In this document: positions 3,001 to 9,000 of the stretch, in pieces
Layout of the letters: every line of letters starts with the position of its first letter
Numbering within the stretch: the stretch's first letter is position 1
Virus genome (UHGV): UHGV-1734115
From: a virus
DNA length: 14,013 bases
Strand: one strand, 5' to 3'
Program-made: the position numbers

Positions 3001-6000
3001 GTGTGTTGCTATGCCTAGCGTCGCCCATCTCACCTTCACGAAGAGCATCGCGTTCGGCGGTAAGATTGGCTATTTTGCTGTCTTTGCCTTCCAGCTCAAC
3101 GCGCAGCTTCCCTACCGTTAGCGCAATATCCTCGTTCTCCTGGTTGCGGGATTTGATGTATTGCTGGTTTCTTTCCCGTTCATCCAGTAGTGCCAGCACG
3201 GTAGCCGGGTTAGCCTCTGCTATGAATTCAGCGTTTGCATAAGCCTGAGCATCTGTTTCAATCAGGCAGTTAACATGACATTCTGCAATCACGCCACCGG
3301 GTTCTCCTTTCCATTTTTGGCAAACAAAAACTCCTGTTAAATTGCCGTGCTGGTTAACAGATGTATGCCCTACGATGTAGCTTCCTTTAGTTGCTTTCTC
3401 TGCCGCCTCACGCAGTACCTGATAGTTAATGTTGCTCACTGGTTGCCTCCTTTGCGAAGCTGGGCGGCGATATCTTCGAGAACGCCATCAGAGAATGAGC
3501 GGTCAAAATCGCCTTCCGGCGCATTAGCCATAAACTCAGTAGAGGTAAGAATCATCCGGGCAATATCCGCGGCGTTCTTCGCAGTATCATCAATAAAACC
3601 AGCTTCCCAGGCAGCCAGCATTCTGTTCGCCACAAAGTAAGCGCCCTCCTTGCGTGCTTCAGTCTTCACTTCAGCCAGGAAAGCATCGGTGGCTGGCATA
3701 TTTCCTGTTGCCTTCATGGCCTCCAAAATAACCAGAACGCCATCTCTCCCAACCGCCTCACAGATAACCTCGGTGTTGTCGCCAACAACATCGCAGAATG
3801 CCTGAACTGCCTTACGAGCCAGCGCACTCTCCGCCGCCAGCGCCGCGCACTTGGCCTCCGCTTCAGCAAATTTACGCACCAGATATTCAGCGTTTGTTTC
3901 GTTAACCTTTAAATCGCTTGGGATGCATTTACCTTTCAGGAATCCATCCATCTCAATTAGTGACATTTGTTTCATTTCTTCCCACTCCGCAACATCGCAT
4001 TCAGATATTTGTTTTGATTCACTGACGGAAAAGAATTTCTCTTAAGCAATTCCTCTCTCGATGGCATTGGCTTTACGCGTTGGCGAATAATCATTTCTGC
4101 CGGAAGAATGCCGGGATTGTATGCAAGTCCTCTCATGGTAAATTCCTCAGTCATTACTGATAGCGCCATAGCGTGAGCGGTAATTACGCAGGCGCGGGTC
4201 GATATATTCAGGGAATTTGTCTATTGTCGCTTTTCGCAACGGTCTCATTGCTGTTTCGTTTGTTCGGTCCTTCTCCTGTTTTAGCGCGAGTTGTATATCG
4301 CGTCGGTACATCCGTTCTGCTTTTGTTTCTGGTGTCAGAGCAAGAAACGCGTCGAAATTGTTTTTGATATTCTCCAGCACCTCCGCCTTGGAGCTACCGG
4401 AGCAGTTGCGCGGGTCATCCGCACCATACAGAGGCGCTGGCATAATGGGAGCCTTATTTTCAGTAATCAGAAAGCAGGGTAATCGTTCTGGCTGTAACCA
4501 TAATCATCTGCATGATTCTGGCTTACGTTTTTAGAGCGATTGTCTTTATCTTTGAGGCTGGCAACCATGTCGGCGATAGTTTCTGGTTGCTTGCCTTCTG
4601 CCTTTTCTTTAAGGGTTTGACCTGTTTGTGCAATAAACGGGATGCGTATTTCCATCTGGTAGCTGTCTGCGCCAGTCTTTTTGTTTGTGGTTAATACTTT
4701 CTGGAGCACTAACCCGATTTTCTTTCCATGAAATTCAGGTGCAACAAATTTACTGGCGGAAACCATATGCTGCGTTAATTGTCCAATCCCGGCACACCCC
4801 ATCATGGCGTGAACGACATTTGCGCCAAATTTGTTTTCCGTTCCGTCATTTTTCTGAACACAGACGCTAAGATATTGGATTTTACGGCCGTCGTCGGATT
4901 CTCCAGAAAACTCAATAAATTTGGCTCCTTTTTCTGATTGCTTTAGTTCTGCTTCAGTAATGGTAATGATATGGGCGCCAGTTTCGTTAATAAAACCACC
5001 TTGCCCTGCGGTCAGTGCTGCTTCTTCGTTATAAGTAAAAATCACGTTGCTCATGCGGCGTTTTCCTTAATTTGATGAACATTATTGATGCCGTAGTAAT
5101 CACAAACAGTGGCATCGACGAAAGAGAGATCGTTATCAATCTCATTGGAATCAAACATTCCCATTGGGGATTTGACAGTGTCTGCACCGTTGTTTTTCGT
5201 GGTGAAAAAGAACTGGTCATCGCGGGTAAGAGTGCGAAGAACTATAGTAAACATGCCTTCGACAGTGATTTTCTCGTCCAGCATTTTGCCGATAGTTTTC
5301 ATTTTCACGCGCCCCATAGGGGTTTCTTCGGTATGTGCAAGAAAATAGACTCTCAGGTCATCAGGTGCATCCTGTGCAGCCTTAATCACCTCCCATGCGT
5401 GGCGGCCTATCTCAGTAAATTTATCAAACGATTTTTCTTCTGAGCGGCGCATAAACTCATTGCTCATCACATACTGGAAGTCATCAACAATAACGATTCT
5501 TTTTCCGTATTCGTGAGCACGCTTAATTGCAGCAACTATTACGTCCCATTTGTCAGTGGTAACTACGGTTCCTTTTTTTGCTCTGGCATCCCATGCAAGC
5601 CAGTCTTTTGATTTAAATGGTAGCGGCTTGCCTATTGGTTTTATAAGTATTGCTTCCTCTGGATTGATATTTCTCATGCTGGTTGATTTTCCGGTGCCAG
5701 ATTCACCGAGTATTAATGTCGCAGTTCCCATAATTTGCCTCAGAATGGTAATTCGGATGGGCAGGAAAGAAATTCGCGCTCATTCATGCGCTCTCTTTGC
5801 GCCTGCCATAAACAAAGTTGTTTCTTTGATTTATCTCCCGCTTTACGCCAGTAACGAGCCTCAGCAATGTGATATTCTCTTTTTAATCGACTTAACTCTG
5901 GAGTTTTCGCCAGTTCTACCGGAATCATTTTGACCTCCATTTTCTGTAGGCTTCTACGGCTTCACGAAACATCTTTTCATCGCCAATAAAAGTGGCGATA

Positions 6001-9000
6001 GTGAATTTAGTCTGGATAGCCATAAGTGTTTTATCCATTTTTGGGAACTCCTGGCTGATTAAGTATGTCGATAAGGCGTTTCCATCCATCACGTAATTTA
6101 CGTGTGATTCGTTCAAGTAAAGATTCGGAAGGGCAGCCAGCAACAGGCCACCCTGCAATGGCATATTGCATGGTGTGCTCCTTATTTATACATAACGAAA
6201 ACGCCTCGAATGAAGCGTTATTGGTATGCATATAAAAAAGCCCTCACATTGGAGGGCAAAGAAGATTTCCAATAATCAGAACAAGTCGGCTCCTGTTTAG
6301 TTACGAGCGACATTGCTCCGTGTATTCACTCGTTGGAATGAATACACAGTGCAGTGTTTATTCTGTTGTTTATGCCAAAAATAAAGGCCACCATTAGGCA
6401 GCCTTGTTGTTCTGTTTACCAAGTTCTCTGGCAATCATTGCCGTCGTTCGTATTGCCCATTTATCGACATATTTCCCATCTTCCATTACAGGAAACATTT
6501 CTTCAGGCTTAACCATGCATTCCGATTGCAGCTTGCATCCATTGCATCGCTTGAATTGTCCACACCATTGATTTTTATCAATAGTCGTAGTCATACGGAT
6601 AGTCCTGGTATTGTTCCATCACATCCTGAGGATGCTCTTCGAACTCTTCAAATTCTTCTTCCATATATCACCTTAAATAGTGGATTGCGGTAGTAAAGAT
6701 TGTGCCTGTCTTTTAACCACATCAGGCTCGGTGGTTCTCGTGTACCCCTACAGCGAGAAATCGGATAAACTCTATTCACCCCTACAGAGAGCAAAAGAGA
6801 AACGCCGATGAACAACTCATGGTGGCAGGAACTAATGCATTTTTTCCTGCAAGGAATGACACTTAAACAGTTGATTCATATGCTAATCATCCTGATCATA
6901 TTGATTATTGTTATGCCGGTAAGCGTAAAAGAATGGATAAACCTGCATAATCCAGAAATCCTTCCTTATTATTGGATGTATTACATCCTGTTGTTCTGCG
7001 TTAGCTATGTGCTTAACGGTGTTGTTAATTCCGCTTATCACGCTGTGACTGAAAGAATTGAGGTATCCGCTGCTCAGAAGCGCAAATCTAAAGAAGAAAA
7101 ATATGTGCAAGATTTGTTTGATTCGTTAACTCTTGGAGAAAGAGCGTATTTGGCATTCGCTGTAGCCGCGAATAACCAGCTAAAGACAGAAAAGGGAAGC
7201 CCTGAAGCAATCTCATTGCTCGAAAAAGGGCTTCTTATTCGGATACCTTCTGCTACTGGATATCCTGAAATCGACCGTTTTGTTATCCCGGAACGCTATA
7301 GAAATGAGTGCTACATTCGGTTTGCCGGGAAGGCAGACAGCCTTATGGATGAACTTATCGCTCAGGATAAGCATGGCAAAAACAAGTAATTAGCAAATGA
7401 ATTTATCATCTCGCCGTCAGTTGTTTTGATTTCCGGTAGCCTGCCGCGTAAAGAGCTACGTTCGGAAGACAAGTTGAACCTTCATATTTTCTGGTCAACG
7501 TTGTCAGAGTTATCACTTCTGCTCTCATTGCTGGTTTGCGCTTGCATTGCAAGACCACTCGTGAAGGGGTTGGCCTGTGTAGCTTGTCGGAGCTGATCGC
7601 CTCCTGACTTTGCAGATTTGCGCGACGCTCTCTACGGCGAGAAGCTGCGGTTCCTTTAAATTCTGTTTTTCTGGACATGGATTCCTCCCGAATAAACTCT
7701 GGCGATGCAATCCCGAAGCTACTCCTGAGAGAGTTGCTTCGGCATTGCATCCCACAGCTTATGTGGTTGGGTGATCTGGCTTTTCAGCCACGTAGTCGAG
7801 TGTTCGACGTTGTTTAAAGAGCCTGCCAGTCTGTTCCGTTTGGCTTACAGCGTCCTGCTGATGAGTTAACTTTATCGAAATGATAAATTAATGGCAATAG
7901 CAAAATGATAAATTGTTTTAGTTTTCAAATATCCTGTTGATTATTATGGTTTTTTATTTGATTGCAGGAATTTATCAGAAGGAATAAAGAGACTTGAGGG
8001 GGATCAGAATTGCGCGTTTTAGTGAGTTGTATCTGTTTATTTTTCAACAAATACAATTGGTTATGGTGTTATTAGGTGTGGGGATCGTGAGGCAAAGAAA
8101 ACCCGGCACTGAGGCCGGGTGTGTATTAGGGGGTTGAGACTCCAGAGAGCAATCCGTAGATTTTATATACAGTAAATGCTAATGCTGGCAAGCCAAGGGC
8201 CCATTTGATTATATCAAGCTTAACATCACTAAGCTTACCTTCTAACTTTGCCTCTTGAACAGAAAGAGCTGCATCGATCTTTTTTGATTGGGAGTCAAGG
8301 GCACTCTCAATTCTACTCGATTGTATGTCCAGACGACTGTTGATTTGTTCGTGCTGAGTAACAACTAAATGCTTCATCTCCTTTATATCTGAAGCCATTA
8401 GTTCACGCCATTTGGCCATATCAGCCTGCATTTTTGAGGCCACTGCATCCACTTCAGCTTTATTTGCCTTCAGAAGTGCCTGTATTTCGTTTCTGCTCAA
8501 ATCGGACATTGCGGTTCCCTGTATAGGAGTTTCCTCGTACGGTGGGATAACATTAGATTGTCCTTTACAATCGGCAACCCCTCCTTTATCTACGATTGTA
8601 GCAGTTAGCTGGGAATTGGTCGCATCATCCACCATGTTTTTTGGTGAATAAGAGGAAATAGGCGTAGAAAACAGATTACCTTTTGCTGTTTCCATGAACA
8701 TCATGAAATCGCGAGTATTAACGTTATTCAGGGAAACTTGCAGTGGTTTAACAATACTTGATGTTTTGTAAGTAATAGTTAAATCACCTACTTCTTCCGG
8801 TTGTTGCATTACGACTTCGCTCCATTAGAGTTTTGTGCCTCTAATTGTTCGAAAAGAAGAACTATATTCTCTTGAAGAGCCTTTAGTTGTGCCATTGGCA
8901 TTATCACAGTGCATTGCTGATTGAGTTCATTTACAGAGCCTATCTGCATATTCGCTCTACCTGGTTGATCTGGTATATCATTTTGGGATAGTACCGCAGG

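What the first reader, a model, noticed from the sequence alone, without database searches (positions are those of the whole stretch)
5740..6171. Chain of three overlapping small ORFs (about 46, 37 and 62 aa) with strong ribosome-binding sites
Seen: each ATG has an AGGAG/GGAGG-type SD and each start overlaps or abuts the preceding stop (TAA/ATG and ATGA junctions), a pattern typical of genuine phage small genes rather than chance ORFs. Lambda encodes small regulators such as Kil and CIII in the equivalent region, but I see no sequence similarity to them from memory.
Basis: partly seen in the sequence, partly recalled or inferred. Interest (0 to 1): 0.4.

Follow-up and report, generated by a model that had tools for sequence, protein, structure and literature searches.

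The report
Phage genes cIII, kil and hkaM
The three small overlapping reading frames are real, already catalogued genes of a lambda-like prophage of E. coli: the protease inhibitor CIII, the cell-division blocker Kil, and HkaM, a conserved 62-residue protein of unknown function that always sits just before the phage's DNA-recombination gene.

Summary
The ORFs are 6171..6031 (46 aa), 6038..5925 (37 aa) and 5928..5740 (62 aa). Each has an AGGAG-type ribosome-binding site, and they are joined by ATGGATAA and ATGA overlaps.

- ORF1 is lambda CIII. It is identical to lambda residues 1-46 and is cut short by one C-to-A change.
- ORF2 is lambda-type Kil. It is 31/34 identical to lambda Kil and 36/37 identical to HK629 Kil, which has been shown to block division through ZipA.
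- ORF3 is HkaM of phage HK620, described in the literature as an orphan of unknown function.

The stretch is 97% identical to HK620 and 100% identical to prophages in E. coli CE10 and other strains.

HkaM is under purifying selection. In all but two of about 105 loci it lies directly upstream of a single-strand-annealing recombinase, and that recombinase belongs to any of three unrelated families (Sak4/AAA_24, Rad52-type, ERF). HkaM is predicted to be a basic helical hairpin with a flexible tail ending in hydrophobic-Pro-Phe, like the tip of SSB. That suggests, but does not show, an SSB-tail-mimic accessory role.

Verdict: ordinary, already known genes, with a modest lead on HkaM.

The parts
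6031..6171 (-). cIII, 46 aa: inhibitor of the host FtsH protease. It is identical to lambda CIII residues 1-46 and lacks the last 8 residues.
   Evidence: Pfam PF02061, 106 bits against a cut-off of 25.7. Identity to lambda. The TAA stop arises from C-to-A in ATGGATCAA, which is also kil codon 3. RefSeq names it 'protease FtsH-inhibitory lysogeny factor CIII'.
6178..6183 (-). AAGGAG ribosome-binding site of cIII, 6 nt before the ATG.
   Evidence: Read from the sequence. The aligned leader and first 66 nt of cIII show no difference from lambda.
5925..6038 (-). kil, 37 aa: lambda-type inhibitor of cell division, ending in RSK.
   Evidence: Pfam PF06301, 76.8 bits against a cut-off of 27.6. 31/34 identical to lambda Kil. 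36/37 identical to HK629 Kil, which was tested experimentally in PMC11762379.
6048..6052 (-). AGGAG ribosome-binding site of kil, inside the 3' end of cIII, 9 nt before the ATG.
   Evidence: Read from the sequence.
5740..5928 (-). hkaM, 62 aa: a basic helical hairpin with a flexible tail ending in LPF. Function unknown.
   Evidence: PHROG 1723, E 3e-33. 98% identical to HK620 HkaM. Codon-position bias. AlphaFold2 model with pLDDT 82.6 and helices at 10-30 and 33-54. P61 and F62 are invariant.
5934..5938 (-). GGAGG ribosome-binding site of hkaM, inside the 3' end of kil, 5 nt before the ATG.
   Evidence: Read from the sequence.
6200..6257 (-). Two terminator-like hairpins upstream of cIII (6257..6240 and 6219..6200). 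They correspond to tL2A and tL2B as annotated in HK620.
   Evidence: Consensus scan, HK620 annotation, and alignment with lambda and HK620.
5051..5731 (-). Sak4-type single-strand-annealing ATPase (HkaL homologue). There are 8 nt between the hkaM stop and its ATG.
   Evidence: Pfam AAA_24. PHROG 2872, E 5e-108. HK620 annotation.
4467..5054 (-). Phage SSB of the HK620 type (HkaK homologue), with the tail ...NDYPAF.
   Evidence: PHROG 743, E 5e-66. Tail read. Role of the tail from PMC5928155.
4147..4443 (-). abc2, the RecBCD modifier. It marks the end of the recombination module.
   Evidence: Pfam PF11043, E 1.5e-35.
6394..6594 (-). ral (restriction alleviation), the gene upstream of the trio in the same operon.
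   Evidence: Pfam PF11058, E 1.6e-48.

Best explanation
The window is the early region of a mosaic lambdoid prophage of E. coli. The finding covers three consecutive delayed-early genes of the leftward (PL) operon, read on the minus strand: cIII, kil and hkaM. They lie between ral and a Sak4-SSB-Abc2 recombination module.

- cIII: from published work on lambda, it encodes an amphipathic-helix peptide that competitively inhibits FtsH. This stabilises CII and favours lysogeny. The copy here ends 8 residues early but keeps residues 14-37, which are reported as essential and sufficient.
- kil: from published work on lambda and HK629, it encodes a two-helix peptide that breaks up FtsZ rings in a ZipA-dependent way and causes filamentation.
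- hkaM: it encodes a conserved, basic two-helix hairpin with a floppy tail ending in an invariant hydrophobic-Pro-Phe carboxy-terminus.
- Coupling (inferred): the start/stop overlaps and internal ribosome-binding sites make the three genes translationally coupled.

For HkaM, my inference is that it is an accessory protein of the recombination module. It would fill the place of P22 Arf without being related to it. It would act on something common to all single-strand-annealing recombinases, such as SSB-coated ssDNA or the host proteins that dock on the SSB tail, rather than on one particular recombinase.

The gene identities are shown here. The CIII and Kil mechanisms are taken from the literature on near-identical proteins. 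The HkaM role is inferred from position and sequence only.
For: Identity of the genes:
- Pfam and PHROG matches.
- 97% DNA identity to HK620, where cIII, kil, hkaM and hkaL are annotated.
- 100% identity to E. coli prophages that RefSeq annotates as CIII, Kil and a hypothetical protein.
- CIII is identical to lambda residues 1-46. Residues 14-37 are reported as essential and sufficient (PMC1838920).
- Kil is 36/37 identical to HK629 Kil. The 5-residue-shorter form of HK629 Kil disrupts Z rings and needs ZipA (PMC11762379). Lambda Kil 1-36 is still active.

Operon context:
- N, SieB, Ral, cI-like and Abc2 matches.
- Terminator-like hairpins upstream of cIII.

HkaM is a real gene:
- Codon-position differences of 18/9/37 against phage L.
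- 94 cluster representatives across Enterobacterales.

HkaM is tied to the recombination module:
- Among 93 loci, the next gene is Sak4 in 68, a Rad52_Rad22-type annealing protein in 19, and a long AAA_24 protein in 3. In one locus an HNH gene comes first and ERF follows.
- Twelve further loci give AAA_24, ERF or Rad52 at 8-15 nt.
- Identical HkaM proteins sit before different recombinase families.
- The upstream gene varies: lambda Kil, KilR, DUF551, 34-36-aa peptides, or proteins of 312-322 aa.

The tail:
- 75 of 81 full-length representatives end in PF. Three of the six exceptions are frameshifted.
- The Pro, Phe and stop codons vary synonymously.
- The modelled tail has low confidence, and the core carries a net charge of +3 to +9.
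Against: - Nothing contradicts the identities of the three genes.
- No expression or activity data exist for this particular copy.
- CIII lacks its last 8 residues and Kil its last 10 relative to lambda. Lambda Kil lacking 11 C-terminal residues was about 10-fold less efficient at removing Z rings.
- For HkaM, sak4 plus ssb alone reproduced the full oligonucleotide-recombineering activity of the whole HK620 module (PMC5928155). HkaM is therefore dispensable in that assay.
- Constant position next to a recombinase gene is association, not function. HkaM could simply be a neighbour that is kept at a module boundary.
Confidence: 0.9

Rival explanations
1. HkaM is specifically a mimic of the SSB C-terminal tip. 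Its acidic-hydrophobic-Pro-Phe carboxy-terminus would occupy the pockets that normally bind the SSB tail (DDDIPF in E. coli, NDYPPF in HK620 SSB). The targets could be host enzymes such as exonuclease I, RecQ, RecO or PriA, or the phage annealing protein. The result would be either protection of recombination intermediates or, through its basic hairpin, recruitment of those partners to DNA. This refines the best explanation rather than opposing it.
For: - Tail variants such as SELPF, DELPF, NDLPF, GEPPF, DEMPF, KDMPF and GKIPF make up 75 of 81 representatives. Selection is at the protein level.
- In the loci inspected, the only forward-strand ORFs ending in PF or AF are HkaM, the SSBs, and one unrelated small ORF next to HkaM.
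- The last six residues of HK620 SSB are needed for Sak4 to bind SSB-coated ssDNA (PMC5928155).
- An SSB gene follows the recombinase in most HkaM loci.
- HkaM is indifferent to the recombinase family, which fits a shared SSB-related target.
Against: - There are no binding data and no complex model.
- Some tails lack an acidic residue close to the tip (GNCPF, GPCPF, HKLPF, KNMPF).
- The rest of the protein is strongly basic, unlike SSB tails.
- HkaM is not needed for Sak4-SSB oligonucleotide recombineering.
- A terminal Pro-Phe could dock on an unrelated partner.
Confidence: 0.2
2. HkaM belongs functionally with Kil or host take-over rather than with recombination. It could be a modulator or antidote of Kil, or an anti-defence protein, and it would merely sit at the module boundary.
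For: - In 84 of 93 loci hkaM is joined to lambda-type kil by an ATGA overlap.
- In other loci a KilR-family gene lies just upstream.
- The region is rich in small host-directed proteins such as Ral, CIII, Kil and Abc2.
Against: - Lambda itself has Kil without HkaM.
- HkaM occurs without any Kil-type neighbour in L005, L091 and L102. It almost never occurs without a recombinase gene immediately downstream.
- There is no PADLOC match.
Confidence: 0.12
3. ORF3 is an Arf homologue or a 'recombinase', as some database labels say.
For: - PHROG 1723 carries the label 'recombinase'.
- The gene was first annotated arf by position, and P22 arf occupies the same slot between kil and erf.
Against: - Profile comparison of the HkaM family with P22 Arf gives E 0.18 over 4 residues.
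- There is no Pfam or NCBIfam domain.
- A 62-residue helical hairpin cannot be an annealing enzyme of any known family.
- Hutinet et al. state that it has no homology to Arf.
Confidence: 0.03
4. One or more of the frames is a chance ORF or a decaying pseudogene. Possible signs are the premature stop in cIII and the short kil.
For: CIII is 8 residues and Kil 10 residues shorter than in lambda. HK620's annotators noted the internal stop in cIII.
Against: - The same stop position occurs in Salmonella phage L.
- Substitutions in cIII are mostly synonymous, 4 of 5 against HK620.
- The essential CIII region is intact.
- A 37-aa Kil ending in RSK is the common form and is active.
- hkaM shows third-position bias.
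Confidence: 0.03

Closest known systems
Phage HK620 cIII-kil-hkaM-hkaL (AF335538; Clark et al. 2001) and the same block in HK629, mEp506 and Stx-converting phages
   Same: Same three genes in the same order with the same overlaps. DNA identity is 97%. CIII differs by 1 residue, Kil by 1 and HkaM by 1. The Sak4-SSB-Abc2 module downstream is the same.
   Different: Only point differences. Elsewhere the window is mosaic: no phage record covers more than about 41% of it.
Bacteriophage lambda cIII and kil
   Same: CIII is identical over residues 1-46 and Kil is 31/34 identical. The ribosome-binding sites and the upstream leader are the same. kil starts inside the end of cIII in both.
   Different: One C-to-A change ends CIII at residue 46 instead of 54. 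Homology to lambda stops at about kil codon 34, which is also the gam start codon in lambda. As a result Kil ends in RSK (37 aa rather than 47), and hkaM with the Sak4 module replaces gam-bet-exo.
Phage P22 arf (accessory recombination function)
   Same: A small gene in the slot between kil and the annealing-protein gene of the PL operon. Arf is reported to aid recombination without being essential (PMC12315714).
   Different: No detectable sequence similarity. Arf is acidic and ends in ...AGYYS. HkaM is basic and ends in ...LPF.
C-terminal tip of bacterial and phage SSB proteins (DDDIPF; HK620 SSB NDYPPF)
   Same: A flexible tail ending in acidic-hydrophobic-Pro-Phe-COOH. It is encoded in the same module as proteins known to read such tails.
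   Different: HkaM has no OB fold and is not an SSB. Its body is a basic helical hairpin. Binding to any SSB-tail pocket is untested.

Membership tests
Lambda CIII (Pfam PF02061) | Sequence matches the family profile above the curated threshold | tested here: met
   106.1 bits against a cut-off of 25.7, E 9.4e-31, covering profile positions 1-42 of 42.
Lambda CIII (Pfam PF02061) | Central amphipathic region (lambda residues 14-37), reported as essential and sufficient for activity | tested here: met
   Residues 1-46 are identical to lambda. The requirement is taken from PMC1838920.
Lambda CIII (Pfam PF02061) | Inhibits FtsH and stabilises CII | not testable with these tools
   Needs a biochemical or genetic assay. 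A cII-like gene is present at 10443-10739 (+), assigned by ORF listing and position only.
Lambda-type Kil (Pfam PF06301) | Sequence matches the family profile above the curated threshold | tested here: met
   76.8 bits against a cut-off of 27.6, E 8.4e-22. 31/34 identical to lambda Kil.
Lambda-type Kil (Pfam PF06301) | Two-helix core with the G19-D20 turn, and a polar RSK/RSSK motif near the C-terminus | tested here: met
   The sequence MDKTLMAIQTKFTIATFIGDEKMFREAVEAYRKWRSK keeps G19-D20 and ends in RSK. The features are those described in PMC11762379.
Lambda-type Kil (Pfam PF06301) | ZipA-dependent disruption of FtsZ rings | not testable with these tools
   Shown for the 36/37-identical HK629 Kil, in its form lacking the first 5 residues. 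Not shown for this copy.
HkaM family (PHROG 1723) | Sequence matches the family profile | tested here: met
   E 2.6e-33 over profile positions 1-58 of 58. 98% identical to HK620 HkaM.
HkaM family (PHROG 1723) | Lies immediately upstream of a single-strand-annealing protein gene (a feature defined in this study) | tested here: met
   8 nt separate the hkaM stop (5740) from the Sak4 ATG (5731). The same arrangement is seen in all but two of about 105 loci: a prophage-end remnant (L089) and a truncated copy (L094). L057 ends too soon for a complete downstream ORF, but a Sak4 match follows hkaM there. In L087 an HNH gene comes between hkaM and the recombinase gene.
HkaM family (PHROG 1723) | Carboxy-terminus ending in hydrophobic-Pro-Phe (a feature defined in this study) | tested here: met
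   The window copy ends in SELPF. 75 of 81 representatives end in PF.
P22 Arf | Sequence homology to P22 Arf | tested here: not met
   hhalign E 0.18 over 4 aligned residues. Hutinet et al. reached the same conclusion.
P22 Arf | Stimulates phage recombination | not testable with these tools
   Only oligonucleotide recombineering has been published, and there HkaM was dispensable.
Recombinase (database label of PHROG 1723) | Carries a recognisable recombinase or annealing-protein domain | tested here: not met
   No Pfam or NCBIfam match. The model is a 62-aa helical hairpin. The best fold matches have E above 0.9 and are generic hairpins such as Rop.
SSB-tail (SSB-Ct) bearing proteins | Flexible C-terminal tail ending in acidic-hydrophobic-Pro-Phe-COOH | tested here: inconclusive
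   The motif is present in most members, but some lack a nearby acidic residue. The tail has low model confidence.
SSB-tail (SSB-Ct) bearing proteins | The tail binds the SSB-tail pockets of partner proteins | not testable with these tools
   No complex prediction or binding assay was available.

The most novel reading that the evidence does not exclude
HkaM would be the founding member of a class of small phage proteins that carry a mimic of the SSB C-terminal tip on a basic helical hairpin. Such proteins would sit at the head of recombination modules whichever annealing protein the module uses. They would work by competing for, or recruiting, the host and phage proteins that dock on SSB tails.
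Probability: 0.2. Interest if true: 0.5.

Novelty: already known. Interest (0 to 1): 0.15.

Why it matters
For the finding as written, it matters little. cIII and kil are textbook lambda genes, and hkaM has been a named gene since the HK620 genome paper of 2001.

Three corrections to annotation are useful.
- The 'Kil' of 79 aa in the HK629 records hides cIII.
- The 'recombinase' label on PHROG 1723 is a carry-over from gene position.
- The truncated CIII and the short Kil are the common, probably functional forms.

The one open point is HkaM. It is found in about 4% of complete E. coli genomes and across Enterobacterales. It is always placed before an annealing-protein gene of any of three families, and it ends in an SSB-like tip. 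If that tip proves functional, it would explain a recurring unknown gene of lambdoid recombination modules. It could also be relevant to improving recombineering systems.

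Tried and rejected
- Fold searches of the HkaM model against the PDB and BFVD gave only generic helical hairpins (best E 4.1 and 0.92). They are uninformative.
- PADLOC and NCBIfam gave nothing for any of the three proteins.
- The exhaustive HMMER search found only 16 hits at the 50% clustering level. The three long hits are spurious or unverified (P0020 is a repeat protein; P0023 and P0027 were not read). The family is therefore small and confined to Enterobacterales.
- The genome-contig scan returned a single locus, from Phytobacter.
- The viral-contig scan returned only near-identical E. coli copies among its best 80. These were useful for context counts but not for diversity.
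- P22 Kil and P22 Arf were compared with ORF3 because of equal length and equal position. Arf gave no similarity by profile comparison. P22 Kil was compared only by reading the two sequences.
- I tested whether the unrelated 62-aa ORF upstream of the Phytobacter HkaM, which also ends in CPF, is a paralogue. It is not: only the last 4 residues align.
- I tested whether conservation of the terminal Pro-Phe merely reflects the ribosome-binding site of the next gene overlapping the stop codon (TTC TGA GG). This was rejected. The amino acids persist with CCG, TTT and TAA and with different junction sequences.
- I did not attempt a fused HkaM-partner structure prediction.
- Literature searches for hkaM synonyms and for SSB-tail mimics in phages found only Hutinet et al. 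2018.

Full report
**Observation**

The three frames lie on the minus strand, exactly within 5740-6171.
- ORF1 runs 6171..6031 (46 aa). AAGGAG lies 6 nt before its ATG.
- ORF2 runs 6038..5925 (37 aa). AGGAG lies 9 nt before its ATG. Its first eight bases, ATGGATAA, contain the ORF1 stop codon.
- ORF3 runs 5928..5740 (62 aa). GGAGG lies 5 nt before its ATG, and it is joined to ORF2 by ATGA.

**Identity**

Pfam assigns ORF1 to Lambda_CIII (106 bits, cut-off 25.7) and ORF2 to Lambda_Kil (76.8 bits, cut-off 27.6). ORF3 has no Pfam family but matches PHROG 1723 at E 3e-33.

The 561 bases around the trio are 97% identical to phage HK620. There the genes are annotated cIII, kil, hkaM and hkaL. The 432-base finding is 100% identical to prophages in E. 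coli CE10 and three other complete genomes. RefSeq calls the genes 'protease FtsH-inhibitory lysogeny factor CIII', 'host cell division inhibitory peptide Kil' and 'hypothetical protein'. The whole trio occurs in 226 of 5,426 complete E. coli genomes, and part of it occurs in 1,532.

CIII is identical to lambda over all its 46 residues. Kil is 31/34 identical to lambda Kil.

**How the copies differ from lambda**

An alignment of the window, lambda, HK620 and Salmonella phage L shows two things.
- A single C-to-A change in ATGGATCAA turns Kil Gln3 into Lys. In the cIII frame the same change creates TAA, so CIII ends at residue 46 instead of 54. The remnant of the lambda C-terminus (NTYGYPD) is still readable after the stop. 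Phage L has its stop at the same place.
- Homology to lambda ends at about kil codon 34, which in lambda is also the gam start codon. From there the HK620-type sequence gives Kil the ending RSK and continues into hkaM instead of gam.

The window as a whole is mosaic: no phage record covers more than about 41% of it.

**Which frames are the real genes**

- The 79-aa ORF 6164..5925 is annotated as 'Kil' in the HK629 records, which lack cIII altogether. It is not supported. Its N-terminal extension is interrupted by stops in phage L. The five base differences between the window and HK620 or HK629 in that stretch cause one amino-acid change in the cIII frame but four in the extended frame.
- The 66-aa form of ORF3 (ATG 5940) has no ribosome-binding site. 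Distant homologues begin at the MIPV start.
- ORF3 is under purifying selection. Against phage L (68% protein identity) the differences fall 18/9/37 on codon positions 1/2/3, with 22 synonymous codon changes.

**Mechanism of CIII and Kil (from the literature on near-identical proteins)**

- CIII is a competitive inhibitor and substrate of FtsH and protects CII. Residues 14-37 are reported as essential and sufficient (PMC1838920), and they are intact here.
- Lambda Kil disrupts FtsZ rings in a ZipA-dependent way (PMC3961180).
- Lambda Kil truncated to residues 1-36 still blocks division, though about 10-fold less efficiently.
- The 37-aa HK629 Kil differs from the window's by one residue. It was tested in a form lacking its first five residues. 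That form inhibits division, disrupts Z rings and requires ZipA. The terminal RSK motif is proposed to matter (PMC11762379).

**Operon context**

The neighbours are as follows.
- N at 7750..7406.
- sieB on the other strand, at 6808-7389.
- ral at 6594..6394.
- Two terminator-like hairpins at 6257..6240 and 6219..6200. These correspond to HK620 tL2A and tL2B.
- The trio itself.
- Sak4 at 5731..5051, an HK620-type SSB at 5054..4467, and abc2 at 4443..4147.

The three genes are therefore delayed-early genes of the PL operon and depend on N antitermination. This last point is inferred from the lambda and HK620 paradigm.

**HkaM**

The only paper in the searched library that discusses it (PMC5928155) makes three points.
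- The gene was first labelled arf by position.
- It has no homology to P22 Arf and its function is unknown.
- sak4 plus ssb alone gave the full oligonucleotide-recombineering activity of the four-gene module.

I confirmed the lack of similarity to Arf (hhalign E 0.18). The PHROG label 'recombinase' is therefore a positional carry-over.

The family is small and confined to Enterobacterales. It gives 16 hits at the 50% clustering level and 94 cluster representatives with a profile.

The AlphaFold2 model has mean pLDDT 82.6. It shows a two-helix hairpin (residues 10-30 and 33-54) followed by a low-confidence tail. Fold searches gave only generic hairpins. The core carries a net charge of +3 to +9, and the last eight residues carry 0 to -2.

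**New observations on HkaM**

First, position.
- In 93 loci from phage and virome collections, the next gene is a Sak4 of 226 aa in 68, a Rad52_Rad22-type annealing protein in 19, and a long AAA_24 protein in 3. In one locus an HNH gene comes next, followed by a true ERF.
- The next gene's start codon begins 9 nt after the hkaM stop in 86 of these loci.
- Twelve further loci from more distant homologues show the same arrangement.
- Identical HkaM proteins are found before different recombinase families. P0098 sits before AAA_24 or ERF. P0033 and P0081 sit before ERF or Rad52-type.
- The upstream gene varies: lambda-type Kil in 84 loci, otherwise KilR, DUF551, 34-36-aa peptides or proteins of 312-322 aa.
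- The only loci not followed by a recombinase gene are a prophage-end remnant (L089) and a truncated copy (L094). L057 ends too soon for a complete downstream ORF, although a Sak4 match follows hkaM there.

Second, the carboxy-terminus.
- 75 of 81 full-length representatives end in Pro-Phe. This is usually preceded by Leu, Met, Ile or Pro and by an acidic residue (SELPF, DELPF, NDLPF, GEPPF, DEMPF).
- Three of the six exceptions are frameshifted.
- The Pro, Phe and stop codons vary synonymously (CCA/CCG, TTC/TTT, TGA/TAA), and the junction sequence changes. The constraint is therefore on the protein, not on the ribosome-binding site of the next gene.
- In the loci inspected, the only other forward-strand ORFs ending this way are the SSBs (DDEIPF, DTDIPF, NDYPPF, NDYPAF) and one unrelated small ORF next to the Phytobacter HkaM.
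- The last six residues of HK620 SSB are what allow Sak4 to bind SSB-coated ssDNA.

**Interpretation of HkaM**

The positional evidence favours a role in the recombination module that does not depend on which annealing protein is present. The tail suggests docking on a site that reads SSB-like tips.
- I rate 'recombination-module accessory' as the most likely role.
- I rate the specific SSB-tail-mimic mechanism at about 0.2.
- A link to Kil or to host take-over is a weaker rival. Lambda has Kil without HkaM, and HkaM occurs without any Kil-type neighbour, but almost never without a recombinase gene.

None of this is shown experimentally.

**Verdict**

The finding is real, but it consists of already known genes. 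Two of them are textbook genes, and the third is a named orphan. Interest is low. The residual value lies in the annotation corrections and in a testable lead on HkaM.

Noticed in passing
window 5925-6164 (-); L086 1598-1837: The HK629 GenBank and RefSeq records annotate a 79-aa 'Kil' that overlaps cIII out of frame, and they do not annotate cIII at all. The extension is not conserved: phage L has stops in it, and it takes 4 amino-acid changes where the cIII frame takes 1.
   Followed up: yes
window 5740-5928 (-): PHROG 1723 labels this 62-aa hairpin 'recombinase', and several phage records copy that label. The label descends from a positional 'arf' annotation, and no homology supports it.
   Followed up: yes
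window 8126-9144 (-): Two co-oriented genes lie between the cI-like repressor (9957..9253) and N (7750..7406), where lambda carries rexA and rexB. One is 111 aa with no family. The other is 227 aa, matching PHROG 14825 (unknown function) and a sub-threshold CCDC90-like (coiled-coil family) Pfam match. This may be a prophage-expressed exclusion cassette. There is no convincing PADLOC match.
   Followed up: partly
window 13318-13929 (+): An HNH_3 plus AP2 domain gene, resembling a homing endonuclease, lies directly after the DnaB-like helicase gene. Similar HNH/AP2 genes appear in the early-left regions of related loci (L095, L097).
   Followed up: no
L002 2698-3405; L093 2698-3405: The proteins annotated 'erf' in phage L and ES18 are not of the P22 Erf family. 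The phage L protein matches Pfam Rad52_Rad22 rather than ERF. The ES18 gene has the same coordinates and length but was not scanned.
   Followed up: partly
L005 3801-3989: In Phytobacter ursingii an unrelated 62-aa ORF that also ends in ...NCPF sits directly upstream of the HkaM homologue (...NDLPF). An AAA_24 protein and an SSB ending in DDEIPF follow, so three PF-ended proteins lie in one module.
   Followed up: partly
L087 4784-5308; L090 3400-3903: The SSBs of these prophages carry DDDIPF internally, followed by about 15 extra residues (APVTLPFPRHAIHSI). The canonical tip is therefore not at the carboxy-terminus.
   Followed up: no
window 4467-5054 (-): The window's HK620-type SSB ends in NDYPAF, whereas HK620 has NDYPPF. 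This is a change within the six residues shown to be needed for Sak4 stimulation.
   Followed up: no
window 5925-5945 (-); L004 about 2225-2240: The mosaic joint between lambda-type and HK620-type sequence falls at about kil codon 34. The lambda gam start codon aligns with the unused upstream ATG (5940) of hkaM.
   Followed up: yes
L094 2501-2644: In Salmonella phage GE_vB_TR (an unverified record) hkaM is cut short at residue 47 and lacks the PF tail. No long ORF follows closely.
   Followed up: no
L067 3896-4066: One viral contig carries two HkaM-type genes. One is the E. coli type before Sak4. The other is a divergent 56-aa type ending in GPCPF before a Rad52-type gene. This could be two modules or an assembly chimera.
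   Followed up: no
window 120-767 (-) and 1067-1795 (-): [quoted passage not shown] One matches AntA plus the P22_AR C-terminal domain, and the other matches PHROG 1726 (anti-repressor).
   Followed up: no
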